A DNA stretch of 64,000 bases. Source: Octopus vulgaris (lineage: Eukaryota). The stretch is from contig OX597828.1 in NCBI GenBank assembly GCA_951406725.2, positions 37,138,001 through 37,202,000 on the forward strand, read 5' to 3'. Under the pieces are notes generated by a model that was given only the letters and a program-made list of their open reading frames with translations, did not search any database and was not told the origin of the DNA. Positions 1 to 56,083 of the stretch are shown here, in pieces; within the stretch, counting starts at the first letter, position 1, and each line of letters begins with the position of its first letter. A program made the translations under genes and the position numbers.

Positions 1-338
1 CAACACACGACTTCACATAAAAAATCTTGCACAACAAATATTTAAACGTATATATATATATATTTACATGCATACATTCATACACACATATATATATATA
101 CACATACATAATACATACATACATACATGCATACATATATATTACAGAACCGCTCAAAACTAGACACTAATATCTAAGCACTATCTAAGCTTACTAACAT
201 TAGCAATGAAAACAAACAACCAATATGATTGTAATTTCTACAACCAAGCATAGCAAATATGTATTCCCATCATCACTTGCTAAACGGATATCATTATTGT
301 TTTGACAATCAATAGTAAGCAGCACAGCAAGATAAATG

Positions 339-424
<86 letters not shown>

Positions 425-579
425 TAACATATTCTTATTTTTCTATATTTTTATCATCTATGTCTTAATATAAATATGTTGTTATTTGTATCGAATAATA
501 TCTCATGTCATACTTCTGAATTATGAATTTTCTTGATTGAATGTTTAAGACAAGTATCTGAAAAATTTATCTTTTACTA

Positions 580-622
<43 letters not shown>

Positions 623-687
623 GGTCCCGGGTTGAGTCGGGGTTAACCACAGTAAATAAGGTACTCAATACATAGCAGAGTAAATTA

Positions 688-813
688 ATTTATTTTATAG
701 AAGGAGCTTCTACAGGACTAGAACTGTTTCATTCAAAAGAAATCATCAGGAAGCTTCCTGATGATTTCTTTTGAATGAAACAGTTCTAGTCCTGTAGAAG
801 CTCCTTTTATAAA

Positions 814-819
<6 letters not shown>
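688..819. repeat. 132-bp loopless palindrome (66-bp arms, 1 mismatch) centred on AAGCTT
   Basis: Base-by-base pairing of 688-753 with 754-819; only 700/807 mismatch. The unit (about 620-819) is flanked by (TA)n on both sides. Confidence 0.95.
752..802 (+). ncRNA. Type I hammerhead ribozyme-like motif (mirrored on the minus strand at 705-755)
   Basis: Stem I agcttc/gaagct, core CTGATGA (758-764), short stem II ttc/gaa, GAAA (777-780), stem III acag/ctgt, cleavage triplet GTA (794-796). Confidence 0.7.
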
Positions 820-852
<33 letters not shown>

Positions 853-854
<2 letters not shown>

Positions 855-2119
855 GGCTTCTCCAGAACGTTCGTACCGATTTTTAAAGGAAAAAAAGGTC
901 AATAAATACCTGCCCATTCAACCAAATATGCACCATTTTGTTGCACAATGCGTCTCTATCTTTCCTTCAACTTGAAAATACCCTCTTCCCAGAATTGAGG
1001 TGGTTTTATGGCAAAGAATTCATCAAGGTATCTTTTTACATCATCCAAGTAATTGACATTTTTACTATTAAGACTATTCTGCAGAGACCTGAATAAGTGG
1101 AAATCCTAAGGAATAATATCTGGTGAATATGAAGGGTGTGGAAACACATCCCAGCCGAGCTGCGGCAATTTTTGTCTGATTCCCAAAGAAACGTGCGGTC
1201 TTGCATTATCATGATGGAAAACAACACCCTTTCTGTTGGCCAATTCTGGACGTTTCTCTTGAATTGCTGCTTTTAACTCATCCAGTTGTGTGCAGTATTT
1301 CTCAGAATTAATTGTCTGGTTACTTTGGAGAAGCTCATAGTACAGAATTATTTTCCAATCCCACCAGAAACAAAGCAAGACATTTTTAAGGTGAATACCC
1401 GCTTTTGGGGTGGGTAAGGATGGCTCATGTCGCTTACTCCAGGATCGCTTTCTCTGAAGATTTTCGTAGATAATCCATTTCTCTTCACCTGTCACAGTTT
1501 CCTTTAAAAAAGGCACGTTTTCATTCCGTTTTAAAGCGAATCACAGATGGAAATGCGATCCAAAAGATTCTTCTCACTCATGTGGTACCCAAATATCGTA
1601 GCGATTTGTGTACCCAATCTTTACTAGGTGCTCATGAACGACGGGTTTTTGATAGGTTGAGGCTTCCTGCCAATTCTCGGGTTGTGCAATGTGGGTTATT
1701 CTCAATTAATGACTTGATTTGGTCATCATCTGTTGTGGACGGTCTGCCTAGTCGCTCTTTATCAATAAGGCTACAATCTCCAGCTCGGAACCTTACGAAC
1801 TACTTCCGTACAGTTCTTTCGGATAAAGAAACATCACCATAAATTGCGCGTATTTCTTTCGTTGTTTGTGCGGCATTTTCCCCTTTACGGAAAAAGAAAA
1901 GCATCAAGTGCCGAAAATGAACTTTCTTATCTTCCATTTTAAAGTGTTACAGAATTAACAGAGGTTATAGGAACATAAACCTTCTTCCACGAAAAGATAG
2001 CTTAAACTGTGCTCTAAATGGAGGTGAAGTCAAATCCTATTTTATGGACTCAACCATGTTCTAAAATAAGTCGAGAGTTAAGCCACTATAAATCAGCACG
2101 AACTTTCCGGACAGCCCAA
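853..2119 (-). mobile_element. Full-length mariner (DD34D) transposon, transposase disrupted
   Basis: TIRs like TTGGGCTGTCCGGAAAGTTCGTGCTGATTT with TA flanks. Protein start MEDKKVHFRHLMLFFFRKG; motifs WVPH, TGEEKW, HHDNARPH, PSYSPDI; stops and frameshifts. Confidence 0.95.
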
Positions 2120-2132
2120 TATATATATATAT

Positions 2133-2293
2133 GTCATTTAATAAACACAATGTATGTCTTATGTAATATTATTAGTTTCATGTGCTGAGAGCTTGTCGGA
2201 CAGTACTTTTTAACTCGTCTGGCACGCTTGCGGCTCATGAAACCAATAGTAACACATAAAAATATATAGGTATATATTGTGTTTATTAAATAA
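2133..2293. repeat. Imperfect inverted repeat (about 55-bp arms), MITE/fold-back remnant between TA tracts
   Basis: tttaataaacacaat...gtttcatg pairs with catgaaac...attgtgtttattaaa. Confidence 0.6.
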
Positions 2294-2351
2294 CATTTAT
2301 TCCCCATCAGGTAGAGTACTTTCCTTGTTGATCTTACTATCACAGAACATC

Positions 2352-2427
<76 letters not shown>

Positions 2428-2444
2428 TATAAATAAATAAATAA

Positions 2445-2482
<38 letters not shown>

Positions 2483-3251
2483 CTACACTCATGCATACAT
2501 GTGTTTACCAAATTCCTAGCGTATACGTTACTAATATTTTGTTGCTGTTTCTAGGGGGTGAAGTAACTACGTAAAGGCTACCTCACTTGCTCGGATCAAA
2601 ATCACTCGGGACCCCATGTGTTCTAGTTTAGTCTTGTTGCCTTCACAATGTATTATTTAAGTTATAAAAGAACATTTATACTAAAGAAGACATAAATCTA
2701 CGATCATCGATTATCCATATAAAATAGCGGACAATAAAACAATGATGAATTGGTTTGGACATGACATATGGAAACTATTTCAGGAGAAATTGGAACAATA
2801 TATTAACTCTCAACTTAGGGCATAGCATTTCTCGGCGATATCTGATCAATTCTGATTGGTCTTCCTTCCCAACCCATTATCCAATTGGCAATGCAGCACT
2901 GTGAAATTCACAAGCGGAAGTCAGATGTACTTTTTTTTAATAGCTTAGTAAGTGCAGTAAAAAGAATAGAGTGGTTGCTGGGGAAAAGTAGGTAATGCAT
3001 AGTGAAAATGCGCTCAATCACAACAGCGTAGTACTGTGAGCAAATGTCATCTATAACGGCCTAGTATTGACCAATGAAATTTTGTAGAAGGCAACCGTTT
3101 CGTTGTTTGTCTCGAGGAAGTTTCCTGTTTTGATAAAGGCGTGCAACACCATAGCCTGGCCCTCATAAGCATACAAGGAGGTACAACACGGATTCTATGT
3201 GATAATTTCTAAATATGTTAACTTCACAGACGCATGTATCCATATATATAT

Positions 3252-3444
3252 AGGGAGAGTTTACGCAAAAAACAAAAGACGAAGACAGGTGGTGTACAAA
3301 ACAAAGAGATGTATTAGTATAACGCTCAGGAATATAAAGTCTCTTACGTTTCGAGCCTACGCTCTTCTACAGAAAGGGACACAGAAAAAACAAGGAGAGA
3401 AACAAGGAGAGAAAAAATGGAAAGAAAAAAAGGAGAGAAAGTCT
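3252..3444 (-). mobile_element. Hammerhead-bearing mini-element (family H1) flanked by TA runs
   Basis: Minus strand cttt-CTGTAGA-agagcgtaggctc-GAAA-cgTA-agag (3341-3376); 3' tail cctgagcgttatactaatacatc...ctcccta shared with the 37630-37852 copy. Confidence 0.7.
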
Positions 3445-3660
3445 ATATATATATATATATATATACATATATACATAGATACACATATAGCTGAATTATA
3501 AAATGATTAAGGTGGCTAGACGTAATTTAAAACCAAAAAGGAAATATTCAACCGTTCAAATATATATTTATATATGTATACATACATGCATACATACATA
3601 CATACATACATACATACATACATACATACATACATACATACATACATACATACATACATA

Positions 3661-3887
3661 CAGAGCAGGCTAAAGATAACCCGACAGTAAATCAAAATTC
3701 TATAAATACTTAATATTCAATTTTATTTATTCATTCCAATTATTGAAGGCAGTGAGTTAAGATTCAGTGTTTTTCTTTTTCAACATTTGTCTATTTATTA
3801 GCGAACTTTCATGTAAAATAATTTTTTATTTTAATCTTGGAATTAAATGGTTTTAATTTACTGCCAGGAGACTTTTGGACAACCCTA
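3661..3887. mobile_element. Tc1/mariner-type MITE, degenerate
   Basis: Ends cagagcaggctaaagataacccgacagtaaa / tttactgccaggagacttttggacaacccta, TA flanks; same TIR family as 26239-26468. Confidence 0.7.
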
Positions 3888-3936
3888 TATATATGTGTGT
3901 GTGTGTATATATGTGTATATATACACATACATACAT

Positions 3937-3983
<47 letters not shown>

Positions 3984-3998
3984 TACAGAGCAGATAAT

Positions 3999-4547
3999 TG
4001 ACGAGAAGATATTTGCGAAGACATTATTGACTCTATTATTATCTAGTGTAACAATTCAAAAATAATAATAGCAGAATCAATAACATAGGCGATTGCAGGC
4101 CTAAAAAAACACATTAAATAGCTGAAAGATTAAAATAAATCAAAGGACATGCTAAGTATGTCTACCTGCTGGAAATAACAGTCAAAACTCTGATTTAAAT
4201 CGCCAAAATACACTGATAACTACAGAAATCAACCGTCCGAAGGCAAACAGGCCAAGACAATTTCTCAGCATACATTCAACTATTTAGACTCACGTGGCAT
4301 AATAGCCTCACCTCCCTCAGCACGTGTTACCATGATGGAGAGCCCCAACATGTCGCGTTGAATCCTCGCAGCAACTAATACGTTTTGCGCCGAATCCCGG
4401 CAGCCACCAGTGTGAAAATAATTTCAATAAGGAGCAAGTAATTCACGAGAAAATATTTGTGAAGATATCATTGACTCTATAATTATCTAGTGTAACAATT
4501 TAAAAAATGATAATAACAGAATCAATAATATAGGCGATTACAGGCCC
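3999..4547 (+). repeat. About 100-bp diverged direct repeat (3999-4102 and 4444-4547)
   Basis: acgagaagatatttgcgaag...ataggcgattgcaggcc recurs as acgagaaaatatttgtgaag...ataggcgattacaggcc. Confidence 0.85.
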
Positions 4548-4649
4548 ACCCTAAAGCATTAATATATGGAGATGTCTAGTTCATGCTACATATAACACCA
4601 ATGGTTTTTCTAAACTGTTACGTTACACATACAAATATATATACAATTT

Positions 4650-4845
4650 TTAAAAAATGAGAAAAAAGACAAGAAACAAAACAACAACGCGAGTACGTGG
4701 TGCATGCAAAGTATTAATAAGTTGCTTATGGAGGGAAAGAAAGGGTGTGTGGCTTACGTTTCGAGCAAAGCTCTTCTTCAGAAACGAGAAGACTGGAAGA
4801 CGGAGGAAAAAAGTCGCCAAGAATCCACATGTCGTTATATTTTGG
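4650..4845 (-). mobile_element. Hammerhead-bearing mini-element (H1-related)
   Basis: Minus strand CTGAAGA-agagctttgctc-GAAA-cgTA at 4751-4785; adjoins (AATAT)n/(TA)n. Confidence 0.65.
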
Positions 4846-4909
4846 AATATAATATAATATAATATAATATAATATAATATAATATAATATAATATAATAT
4901 AATATAATA

Positions 4910-4958
<49 letters not shown>

Positions 4959-5112
4959 GCATTCATACACACGTGCATGTGCATTTTAGGTATTACGCTA
5001 TACAGAATTATTTATATTGAGAACGGTTCTCGTCTTGTGTATCAAAGCTTTTGGTTATTTTAATACTGTTTGTGTGTGTACGTTCGTGACTGAATATAAG
5101 CATATATCTATA

Positions 5113-5171
<59 letters not shown>

Positions 5172-5501
5172 TTATACAAACACATGATATACACAGAATA
5201 TTTTTGAAATATATACATAAAAATGCTCGGAATATATACCACACGCACACACATGCACACACACACACAATTACGCCATGGGTTGCTTAAAATAAAGACC
5301 TTAAATGGTTAACACTATGCCGCAACATGTTTAATAAAAACAGTGAGTCCAACATAAGGCGTTTTGTTTCGTTCGAAATAACATATTTTTCACTTTGCTT
5401 AGTCCAGGTCATATGTTATTAGGCAGAACTATGATCAATGACATTCTAGTCTCGATCAACGCGTCCTACCCATGGGCAGTTTTTTTTTATCATCTATCGC
5501 T

Positions 5502-5820
5502 TACTTGTTTCTGTCATTGCTTTGTGGCCATGCTGGGGCACCGGTTTGAAGGGTTTTAGTCGGATTGTTCGACTCCAAGTCTTATGTCTAGTACTTATTC
5601 TATCGTTTTTCTTATGGTGAACAGCTAAATTACGTGGACGTAAAGCAGCTAACACCCGCTATCATGTTGATCAAGGAGACAAACACAGATATACATATAC
5701 ACACACATTTCTATATACAAGGCATTGGCCAAATTAGGGTCTATAGTTGAAGGCACTTGCGCAAGGTACCTCTCATTGGAACTGAACCCGAAACTACATC
5801 GTTGGAAAGCTATGCGCTTA
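5502..5820 (-). mobile_element. Degenerate SINE family A
   Basis: Recognisable tail (ttacttgtttctgtcattg...gccatgctggggcacc) and body similar to 6195-6599. Confidence 0.7.
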
Positions 5821-5976
5821 AGAATTGAGAGTTTTAAAATCAAAGCCGTGCCTGCACTAAACTTCAAGCAGTCCTTGATCCAGCAGATTTCTGATCAAAA
5901 GGCGTTCCAGCCAAGCTCTATTCATAGTATTCTTTTGGTCAGAATTGCTAGTCTTTAATATAAAAATATCCTAAGC

Positions 5977-6185
5977 TGGTGAGCTGGCAGAGTCGATAGC
6001 ACGCTGGGCAAGATGCTCGGCGGTATTTCGTCCGTCTTTACGCTCTGAGTTCAAATTCAGCTGTGATTGACTTTGCTTTTCCTTCCTTCGAGGTCGATCA
6101 AATATGTACCAGCTGTGTACTGAGGATGAATGCAGCCGATTTACCCTTCCCCCGAAATGGCTGGCCTTGAGCCAAAATTTAAAAT
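5977..6185 (+). mobile_element. SINE family B monomer
   Basis: ggtgagctggcagagtcgatagcacgctgggc head, B-box-like gagttcaaatt, central gactttgcttttccttccttcgaggtcgat domain. Confidence 0.8.
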
Positions 6186-6194
6186 ATCGGTATA

Positions 6195-6599
6195 GGCGTA
6201 GGAGTGGCTGTGTGGTTAGTAGCTTGCTTACAAACTACATGGTTCCGGGTTCATCCCCACTGCGTGGCACCTTGGGTTAGTGTCTTCTACTATAGCCTCG
6301 GGCTGCCTAAAGCCTTGTGAGTGGATTTGGTAGGGCGGAAACTGAAAGAAGCCCGTCATATATATGTATATATATATTTGTACATGTGTGTATATGTTTG
6401 TGTATCTGTGTTTATCCTCCCCAACATCGCTTGACAACCGATGCTTGTGTGTTTACGTCCCCGTAACTTATCGGTTCGGCAAAACAGACTGATAGAATAA
6501 GTACTAGGCTTACAAAGAATAAGTCCTGGAGTCGATTTGCTCGACGAAAGGTGGTGCTCCAGCATGGTCACAGTCAAATGACTGAAACAAGTAAAAGAG
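6195..6599 (+). mobile_element. SINE family A, full length (tRNA-derived head, LINE-derived tail)
   Basis: A-box tggctgtgtgg, B-box ggttcatccc, internal TA/TG microsatellite, tail ggtgctccagcatggtcacagtcaaatgactgaaacaagtaaaagag; many copies in the window. Confidence 0.9.
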
Positions 6600-50729: not shown

Positions 50730-52500
50730 CTAGCAGAGACACCCGGCTTTGCTCGGGATTAGAATGATATGATTTTTATTCTTTTACTTGTTTCAGTCAT
50801 ACACACTCATATACTCACAGACATATACACACTCATATAAAAATATGCCGTCGTCATCGCTATAGTATAAATGTCATTTAGTGTCTCGTTTGTATCGAAC
50901 GCACAAACACACACACACGCACAGACTCATACACACTCATATAAAATGTCCTGTACTATAGTTGACTATAGTTGACTGTTTATGAAATGTTTTATTGTTT
51001 ACACACTGAAAGACTCACACACATACACTCACAGACACATAGACACTCATATACAAAATGTGACACTCTCATCGAACGCGGAAACACACATACACCCACC
51101 AACCTACACACACCCACACACACTGACAGCCATATAGACATTCGTACACTCACACATACACACACACACACATACACACTCATATAGAAAATGTGACGTT
51201 GTCGTCGTCGTCTTCGTGGTCGTATAAAATGTCCTGAACTATATTTTTCCATAAGAAGATTATCTCAATAAAATGTTATATTGTTTTAATCGCTTATCGA
51301 ATTAGAAGCACATGGACGAACAGTAAATGCCACAATAATTATTATAGATAAATTTCTTAATATATATATATATACATACATAAAAGTACACATCAGGTTT
51401 GCAAAAGAAAAGGTGACCACGTACCTACGTTGTGGCTGATGTGATTATAACACCACGTTGTAAGCAATATTCCCTGCTTTTCTTTCTCGAGCGTTCAAAG
51501 AGGTTTGTTTTGCCTCCCACTCTTGTGTAGCCAACACACAATTGTCCGTGAAAAGACAGGATTCTTCCAAGAAAAGGCCAGCCATGGAGAGTATCTGACC
51601 TTGGTATTTATTAAGTCGGGAATTGCAGTCTTCTGAATGAAAATGAAAATATTGCTCCTGATGGGAGGAATTCTTGGAATGAAAACGTCATCACCTTTTC
51701 CACACTCAGAAAGAATGGTAGCCTCGATAACATGTGACATCATTTTCTTTACCACCAGTCTTGTCCCATTGCAAAGTCTTGGCGGTTCCAGATTTCGATG
51801 CAACATTACAGGAGTTCCAACTTTAAGTCGTAATATGTGGGGAGGTAGTCCGGGAGGCTCCAAGGAATTGAGAAATTCTGGAGGATAGTTCACCACTTCA
51901 TTTTGATCTGGAAATGTATCAAGAGACTTGTAAGTGTGAAGACTGCCAAGAAGAGAATGCATTAGCTGTTCGTTAAGTTTCTTAACAGCGACGTTTTTTG
52001 GAACCAATATTGATCTGTCACACAGCCAATTGTGGTTTTGGTAATTTTCTGCCAAGTTGGGAAACACTTTGTCTTTGAGGTCATCGAGAGAATGAACAAT
52101 AGTAGAAAATGGCCATACTTCCATTTCTCCTAGTGTCGAGAGGCATCATGTCATCGCCAAGTGTCAAAATGTCCTGTGCAAACATTGTGGACATTTGGTC
52201 GCCAAGTAGATGAGCTCTCATGTTAGTGGTAAAAGTCAGGATCGTAACATGACGTCACAGGGGAGAGGACTTCGAACAAGCTTGGACCTTATTTGCTCTA
52301 GTGCCTTTGGGAATGACAGGAAGGGTCTGCCTCAAATCACCCGACAACATTCTCCGATGTCTTTGAGGGATGTATCTAATGCTTCCAGAAGTCCCTTGTG
52401 AGCCATGGTGCACTCATACTAGACGTTCAGATGACACTTTCCAAGGACCTTCCCCTGGTCTGAGCTTTTGCAGATGTTGCATGAAGGCGTCTCTAATGCT
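50730..52500 (-). mobile_element. Helitron 3' portion with PIF1-type helicase pseudogene
   Basis: ECTMAHK, GDLRQTLPVIPKG, TNMR, RSILVPKN, EFLNSLEPPGLPPHILRLKVGTPVML, LCNGTRL, FIPRIP; terminus cccgagcaaagccggg hairpin followed by CTAG|T at 50733-50729. Confidence 0.92.
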
Positions 52501-53460: not shown

Positions 53461-53605
53461 TTGAAATTTATAGCAAAAACAAAAGACGAAAACAGGTGTA
53501 TGAGCAACAAGCAAGTGAATTAGTTTGACGCTCGAGAAAATGAAAAAGTCTTTTACGTTTCGAGCCTACGCTCTTCAACAGACGAGCGTAGGCTCGAATC
53601 ATTTG
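53461..53605 (-). mobile_element. Hammerhead-bearing mini-element (H1) with terminal fold-back
   Basis: Minus strand CTGTTGA-agagcgtaggctc-GAAA-cgTA-aaagac; 53559-53573 pairs with 53584-53598. Confidence 0.75.
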
Positions 53606-54674: not shown

Positions 54675-54719
<45 letters not shown>

Positions 54720-54900
54720 GAGAAAAAAGCAACAAGAAAGGATTAGTTTTTCTTGTTGCTTTTTTCTCGTTTATAATCACCCCACATTATTGTATGGTTA
54801 ATACCATATAGTTTTCTGGTATATCTAAGTTAAGTACCGCATTCAAGTGAATTCAATAGAACTCACTTGAATCTTAATTATTTTTACTATATATATATAT

Positions 54901-55905: not shown

Positions 55906-56083
55906 TACTACTACTACTACATTATTTACATTATTTATATTATTTACATTCGACGAATATTTGTCCTCATCTTGTTTTGTGTCGAATGTAAATAATGTAA
56001 ATAATGTACATAATTCCTCATCTCTTAAATATAGAACTGTACTACTACAACAACAACTACTACTACTACTGCTGCAGCTGCTG

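What the first reader, a model, noticed from the sequence alone, without database searches (positions are those of the whole stretch)
688..819. Loopless 132-bp palindrome encoding a hammerhead on both strands
Seen: near-perfect palindrome whose right arm forms a complete type I hammerhead (6-bp stem I, CTGATGA, GAAA, 4-bp stem III, GTA site). The axis AAGCTT lies inside stem I, so either transcription direction yields a ribozyme or a 66-bp dsRNA hairpin. Inference: fold-back during reverse transcription primed at the self-complementary stem I (inverted PLE pseudo-LTR). It could be an ADAR or Dicer substrate, and forms a potential cruciform.
Basis: partly seen in the sequence, partly recalled or inferred. 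Interest (0 to 1): 0.7.

Follow-up and report, generated by a model that had tools for sequence, protein, structure and literature searches.

The report
Head-to-head Hydra-type Penelope stub with hammerheads
This 132-base DNA palindrome is real and is part of a 200-base head-to-head stub of an abundant repeat, likely the end of a Hydra-type Penelope-like jumping gene, whose two hammerhead motifs are predicted to be shut off by the hairpin and whose centre likely marks where the element's RNA begins; the layout is already known.

Summary
Observation confirmed: 688-819 has 66-bp arms, one mismatch and no loop, with a type I hammerhead motif on each strand. The whole insert is 620-819, between two (TA)n runs, with a 68-base tail on the left arm only. 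It belongs to a very abundant family (98-6,515 contigs per run) that forms head-to-head inversions in independent runs. Common variants in the motif fall only at free positions. The U·U pair at helix II is no sign of decay: 14 of 25 published Hydra-clade Penelope families have it. So this is likely a Hydra-type Penelope stub in a published layout; no ORF-bearing parent was found. A TATA motif at -29 in longer copies puts the axis at the predicted RNA start. I favour two cDNAs annealing through AGCT over fold-back (inferred). This locus itself could not be checked in reads. The scan has noted this kind of insert, and this model, on other DNA many times.

The parts
583..618 (.). (TA)18 target microsatellite, left
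   Evidence: sequence
620..687 (-). 68-base 'tail', present on the left arm only; ends in a predicted stem-loop with an AC-rich loop; likely runs to the outer of two reverse-transcription start sites (inferred)
   Evidence: family contigs cover 620-687 in 4 of 4 runs; analogy to PMC11167929
681..692 (.). AT-rich 12-base palindrome at the short end of the element; other family copies end in (TA)n at 684-691 or turn tail-to-tail here
   Evidence: loose ends at 684 and 688 in all runs
688..755 (-). left arm: copy of the element end, with hammerhead motif at 705-755
752..819 (+). right arm: second copy, ending at the short end and running into (TA)n
752..755 (.). AGCT shared by both arms: axis, start of stem I, and predicted transcription start (TATAAAT lies at -29 in longer family copies)
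   Evidence: loose-end consensus at 752/755/756; start site inferred
752..802 (+). type I hammerhead motif: stem I 752-757/797-802, core 758-764, U·U 765/776, helix II 766-768/773-775, GAAA 777-780, helix III 780-783/792-795 with a partly palindromic loop, predicted cut after GTA 794-796
   Evidence: Hydra-clade table
818..851 (.). (AT)17 target microsatellite, right
   Evidence: sequence

Best explanation
The palindrome is two copies of the end of an abundant repeat joined head to head inside a TA microsatellite; the repeat is likely the pseudo-LTR of a Hydra-type Penelope-like element, and the two arms were likely made as two separate reverse transcripts that annealed through the self-complementary AGCT at the RNA's predicted start. 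Shown: the geometry, the two unequal outer ends, the family's abundance, its repeated inversions, and conservation of the motif. Inferred steps: (1) the element's RNA starts at about A752, 29 bases behind a TATA motif, so it begins with stem I; (2) the GIY-YIG endonuclease nicks both strands of (TA)n; (3) reverse transcriptase starts on one strand at the outer site (620, with tail) and on the other at the inner site (688/819, without tail); (4) both copies run through the uncut hammerhead to the RNA's 5' end and finish in ...AGCT-3'; (5) the two ends pair over 4 bases (6 in a subfamily with native AAGCTT) and are filled in, leaving no loop. The stub has no promoter or ORF; read-through RNA is predicted to fold as a 66-bp hairpin, not as a ribozyme. 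Confidence is about 0.9 for Penelope-machinery origin and about 0.5 for the two-cDNA route.
For: Family: 1738, 1808, 943 and 98 contigs laid in 4 of 4 runs; 1641, 6515, 1694 and 899. Short end: 10-17 contigs per DNA run go into (TA)n at 688, the mirror of 819. Inversions: 23 of 24 distinct printed joints are head-to-head; 9 of 32 listed pieces cross the axis, and one (X1 record 5, 705-789, 1 gap) has >=31 letters on both sides for certain. Motif conservation: only three variants of >=3% lie in the 51-base motif (745, 738, 722 = N7, loop II, loop III), all among 13 free positions (hypergeometric p about 0.014, by hand). Clade: 14 of 25 Hydra families in File S2 of PMC8557442 have CTGANGAT...TGAA (U·U), 4 of 25 have ACAG/CTGT as helix III, and almost all Hydra families insert into (TA)n. 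Start site: TATAAAT begins at -29 in loose ends of X1 (7 contigs), X2 (7) and X10 (1); Hydra-2_Amil also has a TATA run about 30 bases before stem I (read by eye). Biochemistry: the Anolis Poseidon protein nicks and extends both strands, starts at two internal sites that define the tail, uses uncut RNA and is modelled as a dimer (PMC11167929).
Against: No ORF-bearing parent was found (no genome held; four collection scans gave 0), so the Hydra assignment rests on motif style and target. The transcription start is inferred from TATA spacing only, and the X3 loose ends show no TATA motif. The tail is 68 bases against the published 30-40. The arms share the same letters at the family's variable sites, which fits one template as well as two. 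Most other joints are not at +1. The monomer fold is marginal: probability of the exact fold 0.04, helix II 0.13-0.18; the common loop II variant is predicted to mispair GAAA. No Rfam hammerhead hit. No contig carries this locus's own left flank.
Confidence: 0.6

Rival explanations
1. Same element, but the second arm arose by fold-back (self-priming) of one cDNA or of an antisense template, with AGCT as the hairpin loop, and the endonuclease then cut the second arm at the AT-rich short end.
For: Self-priming is the published reading of palindromic inverted junctions (PMC3846280 Discussion), and tails were attributed to endonuclease resolution (PMC8557442). The arms are identical at the family's variable sites. 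Spacer-bearing palindromes exist in the family (760-747 with 17 letters between). Tail-to-tail joints at 684-687 suggest this site is cut.
Against: At most one base pair could prime the fold-back here, and the cDNA-sense end forms no terminal hairpin. The right arm ends exactly at a recurrent family end that abuts (TA)n. Both strands are extended from two start sites in vitro.
Confidence: 0.2
2. The parent is a non-coding, tandem non-LTR retrozyme mobilised in trans by a Penelope enzyme, not the end of an ORF-bearing element; the junction chemistry would be the same.
For: 6-bp helix I and short helix II are the canonical retrozyme build, and axolotl HHR_Amex2 has U·U at helix II (PMC7229834). 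Retrozymes derive from Penelope pLTRs (bioRxiv 10.64898/2026.07.22.740005). No start codon with an open frame lies in 620-755 (and the sequence).
Against: No head-to-tail tandem at this locus. The 4-bp helix III, U·U and (TA)n target match the Hydra table. Hydra elements carry the hammerhead near the 3' end, as here.
Confidence: 0.12
3. Assembly or amplification chimera: a single stub mirrored by a fold-back artefact.
For: No read or contig of this locus was available; at 489 no contig of the four runs carries the window's letter.
Against: The mirror stops at 688/819 and the flanks are unrelated. The arms differ at one site. Both outer ends are recurrent family ends. Similar inversions occur in runs from several studies, and at least four other inverted stubs lie in the window.
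Confidence: 0.05
4. The locus is a functional two-way ribozyme, or a selected dsRNA/microRNA source.
For: Both cores are intact. Rfam microRNA-precursor models score up to 54.9 bits. A guessed-RNA run holds family contigs.
Against: All the microRNA scores are below gathering and reflect the hairpin alone. The hairpin excludes the ribozyme fold. There is no promoter, the insert is young (1 difference in 66), and it sits among TA-targeting elements.
Confidence: 0.03

Closest known systems
Hydra clade of C-terminal EN+ Penelope-like elements (Craig et al. 2021, PMC8557442; passages, the Hydra section, and part 2 of 57 plus search hits in the supplement, which is cut as held)
   Same: Type I hammerhead with CTGANGAT...TGAA (U·U) and a 3-4 bp helix III near the 3' end; (TA)n target; inverted 5'-truncated copy (noted for Penelope-13_HM); tail at one end.
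   Different: No ORF here; 8-base loop III against 1-3 in their table; 68-base tail. Six short motif searches (five distinct motifs) gave 0 hits in the held supplement, and it differs from the Hydra-1_Obim hammerhead, so it is a different family.
Inverted pLTRs of Adineta vaga Penelope elements (Arkhipova et al. 2013, PMC3846280; passages and Discussion read)
   Same: Head-to-head inverted repeats with a palindrome at the junction, optional tail, TATA motif in the pLTR.
   Different: Their palindromes at the junction are 18-38 bp and are read as self-priming; TSDs are readable there, not in (TA)n.
Poseidon element PAc of Anolis (Frangieh et al. 2024, PMC11167929; parts 1-2 of 4 read)
   Same: Two internal start sites define the tail; AT-rich target; uncut hammerhead retained in the inserted DNA; AC-rich stem-loop near the outer end.
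   Different: The PAc ORF starts in helix II and copying starts within the AC-rich stem-loop; here the tail ends just past the predicted stem-loop, and no enzyme is known.
Animal non-LTR retrozymes, e.g. axolotl HHR_Amex2 (Cervera and de la Pena 2020, PMC7229834; passages and the mussel section read)
   Same: Type I hammerhead with 6-bp helix I; U·U at the base of helix II in Amex2 (22% cleavage as a monomer, much more efficient as a dimer).
   Different: Retrozymes are head-to-tail tandems that give RNA circles; this is a head-to-head pair of truncated ends.

Membership tests
EN+ Penelope-like elements (Hydra clade) | ORF with RT and C-terminal GIY-YIG endonuclease; Hydra motifs (RWK, DKT, no CCHH) | not testable with these tools
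   No ORF in the stub; no genome held; four collection scans gave 0.
EN+ Penelope-like elements (Hydra clade) | hammerhead motif in the pseudo-LTR near the 3' end | tested here: met
   Motif starts 68 and 136 bases from the two outer ends; U·U style shared with 14 of 25 Hydra families (my count from their table, not a criterion of the paper).
EN+ Penelope-like elements (Hydra clade) | inverted 5'-truncated copy adjoining the 5' end | tested here: met
   23 head-to-head joints among 24 distinct printed joints.
EN+ Penelope-like elements (Hydra clade) | tail on one end only (30-40 bp in print) | tested here: met
   One-sided extension 620-687; 68 bases, longer than published.
EN+ Penelope-like elements (Hydra clade) | insertion into (TA)n | tested here: met
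   583-618 and 818-851; other copies also end in (TA)n.
EN+ Penelope-like elements (Hydra clade) | target-site duplication | tested here: inconclusive
   Not readable inside a microsatellite; no empty site seen, and the tool skipped 572-630 and 804-930.
Type I hammerhead ribozyme | core CUGANGA, GAAA, NUH and three helices | tested here: met
   common variants only at N7, loop II and loop III.
Type I hammerhead ribozyme | G10.1-C11.1 pair and match to Rfam hammerhead models | tested here: not met
   U·U at 765/776; no Rfam hammerhead hit. U10.1-U11.1 is a reported natural variant and the best-tolerated mispair (PMC3088659, core-variation section).
Type I hammerhead ribozyme | self-cleavage | not testable with these tools
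   Predicted marginal as a monomer, possible as a dimer (helix III self-duplex -12.8 kcal/mol), excluded in read-through RNA.
Type I hammerhead ribozyme | loop I-loop II tertiary contact | not tested
   Stem I is open-ended and its upstream part is lost at this locus.
Non-LTR retrozyme | head-to-tail tandem of 150-450 bp hammerhead units | tested here: not met
   Not at this locus or elsewhere in the window; the rest of the genome could not be examined.
Non-LTR retrozyme | circular RNA product | not testable with these tools
   Only contigs were available.

The most novel reading that the evidence does not exclude
Inverted Penelope ends are built from two reverse transcripts, primed on opposite strands at the two tail-defining sites and joined at their 3' ends. 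In this family the RNA begins exactly at hammerhead stem I, whose first bases are self-complementary, so full run-off copies fuse into loopless palindromes. Such palindromes would then map the element's transcription start in DNA, and would overturn the published self-priming reading. I did not find this model in the passages read or in searches; earlier notes of this scan propose it on other DNA.
Probability: 0.4. Interest if true: 0.45.

Novelty: new member of a known kind. Interest (0 to 1): 0.22.

Why it matters
The single locus matters little: it is a young, gene-less and promoter-less stub among very many. The family is a usable test case for an open question named in print (PMC8557442): how Penelope-like elements make tandem and inverted insertions. 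Its common variants at N7, loop II, loop III and +61 would let anyone with the assembly tell two-template joining from fold-back by comparing arms. It also adds an apparently undescribed octopus family with a Hydra-type U·U hammerhead whose activity is untested.

Tried and rejected
Own genome: none held, so there is no copy number, junction census or parent element. Collection scans with short motifs: 0 in metagenome contigs, genome contigs and viral contigs. Rfam: 0 at gathering in the window; in 600-900 only sub-threshold hairpin matches and no hammerhead, so the microRNA reading is rejected. Sequencing runs: 24 listed, all contigs, best share 0.42, no RNA holder listed on record; no raw or long reads, so editing, small RNAs and expression were not examined. 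Locus test: inconclusive, because the tool skipped 572-630 and 804-930 and the left flank is itself a repeat with no contig matching the window's letter at 489. A perfect palindrome would also be broken at its axis in such contigs (inference). Summed contig depth was not used as a copy number. 'U·U means a decayed ribozyme': rejected, since no variant of >=3% appears at either U and it is common in Hydra families. 'Breakpoints cluster at stem I': not supported; the sample is the printed joints only (13; 15 of 20 plus table 5c; one same-strand joint dropped) and is biased by the tool's side-length limits. 'Arms start at the ribozyme cut': 1 of 46 arm ends by the raw tally lies within 2 bases of it; with its inserted letters read by eye, that joint (700-795) is symmetric at +44. 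MITE: rejected (unequal ends, no terminal inverted repeats at the insert's borders). L1-type twin priming (recalled): gives an inverted but not duplicated segment. Look-ups of earlier findings by sequence, relatives and neighbourhood gave nothing. The mariner protein search confirmed the neighbour but did not name the host. The paper search for octopus + Penelope + hammerhead listed 4 papers, none on this family by listing. The supplement of PMC8557442 is cut as held, and bioRxiv supplements are closed; either could contain this family.

Full report
Observation. It folds at -103.5 kcal/mol, z -24.6, and 0 of 200 shuffles do as well. Each arm holds a type I hammerhead motif (752-802 on +, 705-755 on -) with a 6-bp stem I, CTGATGA, GAAA, a 4-bp stem III and GTA. 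My descriptor found only these two in the window, and 3 of 200 shuffled windows had any hit. Helix II is weak: three pairs closed by U·U. No Rfam hammerhead model matched.

Anatomy. The insert is larger than the palindrome. It runs 620-819 between (TA)18 at 583-618 and (AT)17 at 818-851, and the left arm has 68 extra bases. To the right lies a mariner remnant (about 853-2118; PF01359 relatives). To the left lies another multi-copy repeat (430-565). The host is likely an octopus: 4571-4593 matches the Hydra-1_Obim hammerhead stem with 2 mismatches in 23, with 0 of 100 shuffles matching.

Family. No genome was held, and four collection scans found nothing. Public run contigs were informative. 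On 620-820, 1738, 1808, 943 and 98 contigs were laid in four runs; on 430-930, 1641, 6515, 1694 and 899. Copies recurrently end at 688 and go into (TA)n (10-17 contigs per DNA run), which is the mirror of 819. So the right arm ends at a fixed family end and the left arm carries the tail. Other copies turn tail-to-tail at 684-687. Of 24 distinct printed joints, 23 are head-to-head. Nine of 32 listed pieces cross the axis, and one does so with 31 or more letters on both sides for certain (X1, 705-789, one gap). The locus itself was not seen: the tool skipped the microsatellites, and at 489 no contig has the window's letter. An artefact is unlikely but not excluded.

The motif looks selected in the family. 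Only three variants of 3% or more lie in the 51 bases: N7 (30-79% of depth), the first loop II base (6-43%) and loop III (8-25%; it extends the loop's palindrome). All fall among 13 free positions (p about 0.014 by hand). U·U does not vary. It is reported as a natural variant and the best-tolerated mispair (PMC3088659), it occurs in an active axolotl retrozyme hammerhead (PMC7229834), and 14 of 25 Hydra-clade families show it in File S2 of PMC8557442; four of them or their relatives in that table (4 of 25) share the ACAG/CTGT helix III. Against activity: the exact fold has probability 0.04 in the monomer, and the loop II variant is predicted to mispair GAAA. Helix III can self-pair between two molecules (-12.8 kcal/mol), as in the dimer model of PMC4209133 (read, parts 1-2 of 4).

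At this locus the ribozyme is predicted off. In RNA across 620-853, in either direction, stem I pairs have probability about 1e-51. Only an RNA starting near the axis could fold, and the upstream sequence is gone. If transcribed, the locus gives a 66-bp hairpin. No data bore on editing, dicing or cruciform extrusion.

Why the axis is here. Longer copies continue upstream of 752 with TATAAAT starting at -29 (X1 7 contigs, X2 7, X10 1; X3 shows other, mixed sequence). By the usual TATA spacing (recalled: about -30) the RNA would start within a few bases of A752, so stem I is also the predicted 5' end. A cDNA that runs off there ends in AGCT, which pairs with itself; in the X10 variant the native sequence is AAGCTT. 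Two such cDNAs, primed on opposite strands at the two fixed ends, give exactly this insert. The Anolis Poseidon enzyme nicks and extends both strands, starts at two sites that define the tail, and uses uncut RNA (PMC11167929). Fold-back, the published reading (PMC3846280), remains possible, because a palindromic 4-base loop would also look loopless. It would have at most one base pair to prime from and needs a separate cut to explain the right end. The arms share all variable sites, so this locus cannot decide between them. Stem I is not the main breakpoint: 4 of 23 joints have an arm starting at +1/+2, 3 at +7, and most right-arm ends lie at +12 to +26 (a biased sample).

Comparison and verdict. 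It has the layout of an EN+ Penelope-like insertion (inverted 5'-truncated copy, one-sided tail, (TA)n target, hammerhead in the pseudo-LTR; PMC8557442), most like the Hydra clade. Membership proper needs the ORF, which could not be tested, and a retrozyme parent is possible. Its motifs were not in the held part of the Hydra supplement. At least four other inverted stubs lie in the same 64 kb. Earlier notes of this scan describe the same kind of insert, including a 132-base palindrome in a 201-base insert elsewhere in this genome, and the same two-primer and RNA-start reading; these are unchecked notes, not evidence. I had tested AGCT annealing before seeing them, while the lead to the Hydra clade came from them and was then checked in the paper. 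New member of a known kind; interest 0.22.

Noticed in passing
window 4566-4630 (+): Truncated, decayed end of a Hydra-1_Obim-like element: helix II of its hammerhead onward (2 mismatches in 23); points to an Octopus host.
   Followed up: partly
window 4762-4781 (-), 37730-37760 (+), 53550-53585 (-): Three minimal hammerhead-like motifs (…GAAACGTA); 37730 and 53550 share helix II, and 53559-53598 has an inverted duplicate of helix II.
   Followed up: no
window 14020-14062: 43-base head-to-head palindrome with GAAACGTA starting each arm and a 3-base centre; likely another Penelope stub joined just before the GAAA box.
   Followed up: no
window 27601-27723 and 55921-56014: Two inverted stubs of one repeat family with different junction points; family recalled as an octopus Penelope end, untested.
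   Followed up: no
window 54713-54775: 63-base inverted repeat next to a TA run; unassigned.
   Followed up: no
window 853-2118 (-): Decayed mariner transposon in the same TA run; best relatives 77% identical over 143 aa.
   Followed up: partly
window 430-565: Multi-copy repeat; one 643-base contig holds it twice in inverted orientation, like a small DNA transposon.
   Followed up: no
window 22297-22671, 26234-26473, 2127-2300: Short elements with terminal inverted repeats between TA runs, MITE-like.
   Followed up: no
window 51495-52145 (-) and 19164-19541 (+): Open frames that look like a Helitron/PIF1 helicase fragment and a LINE 3' end (names recalled, not searched).
   Followed up: no
run X1 contig, joint 700-795 on the window: One family palindrome is symmetric at +44, within 2 bases of the predicted ribozyme cut; a single contig of depth 21.
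   Followed up: partly
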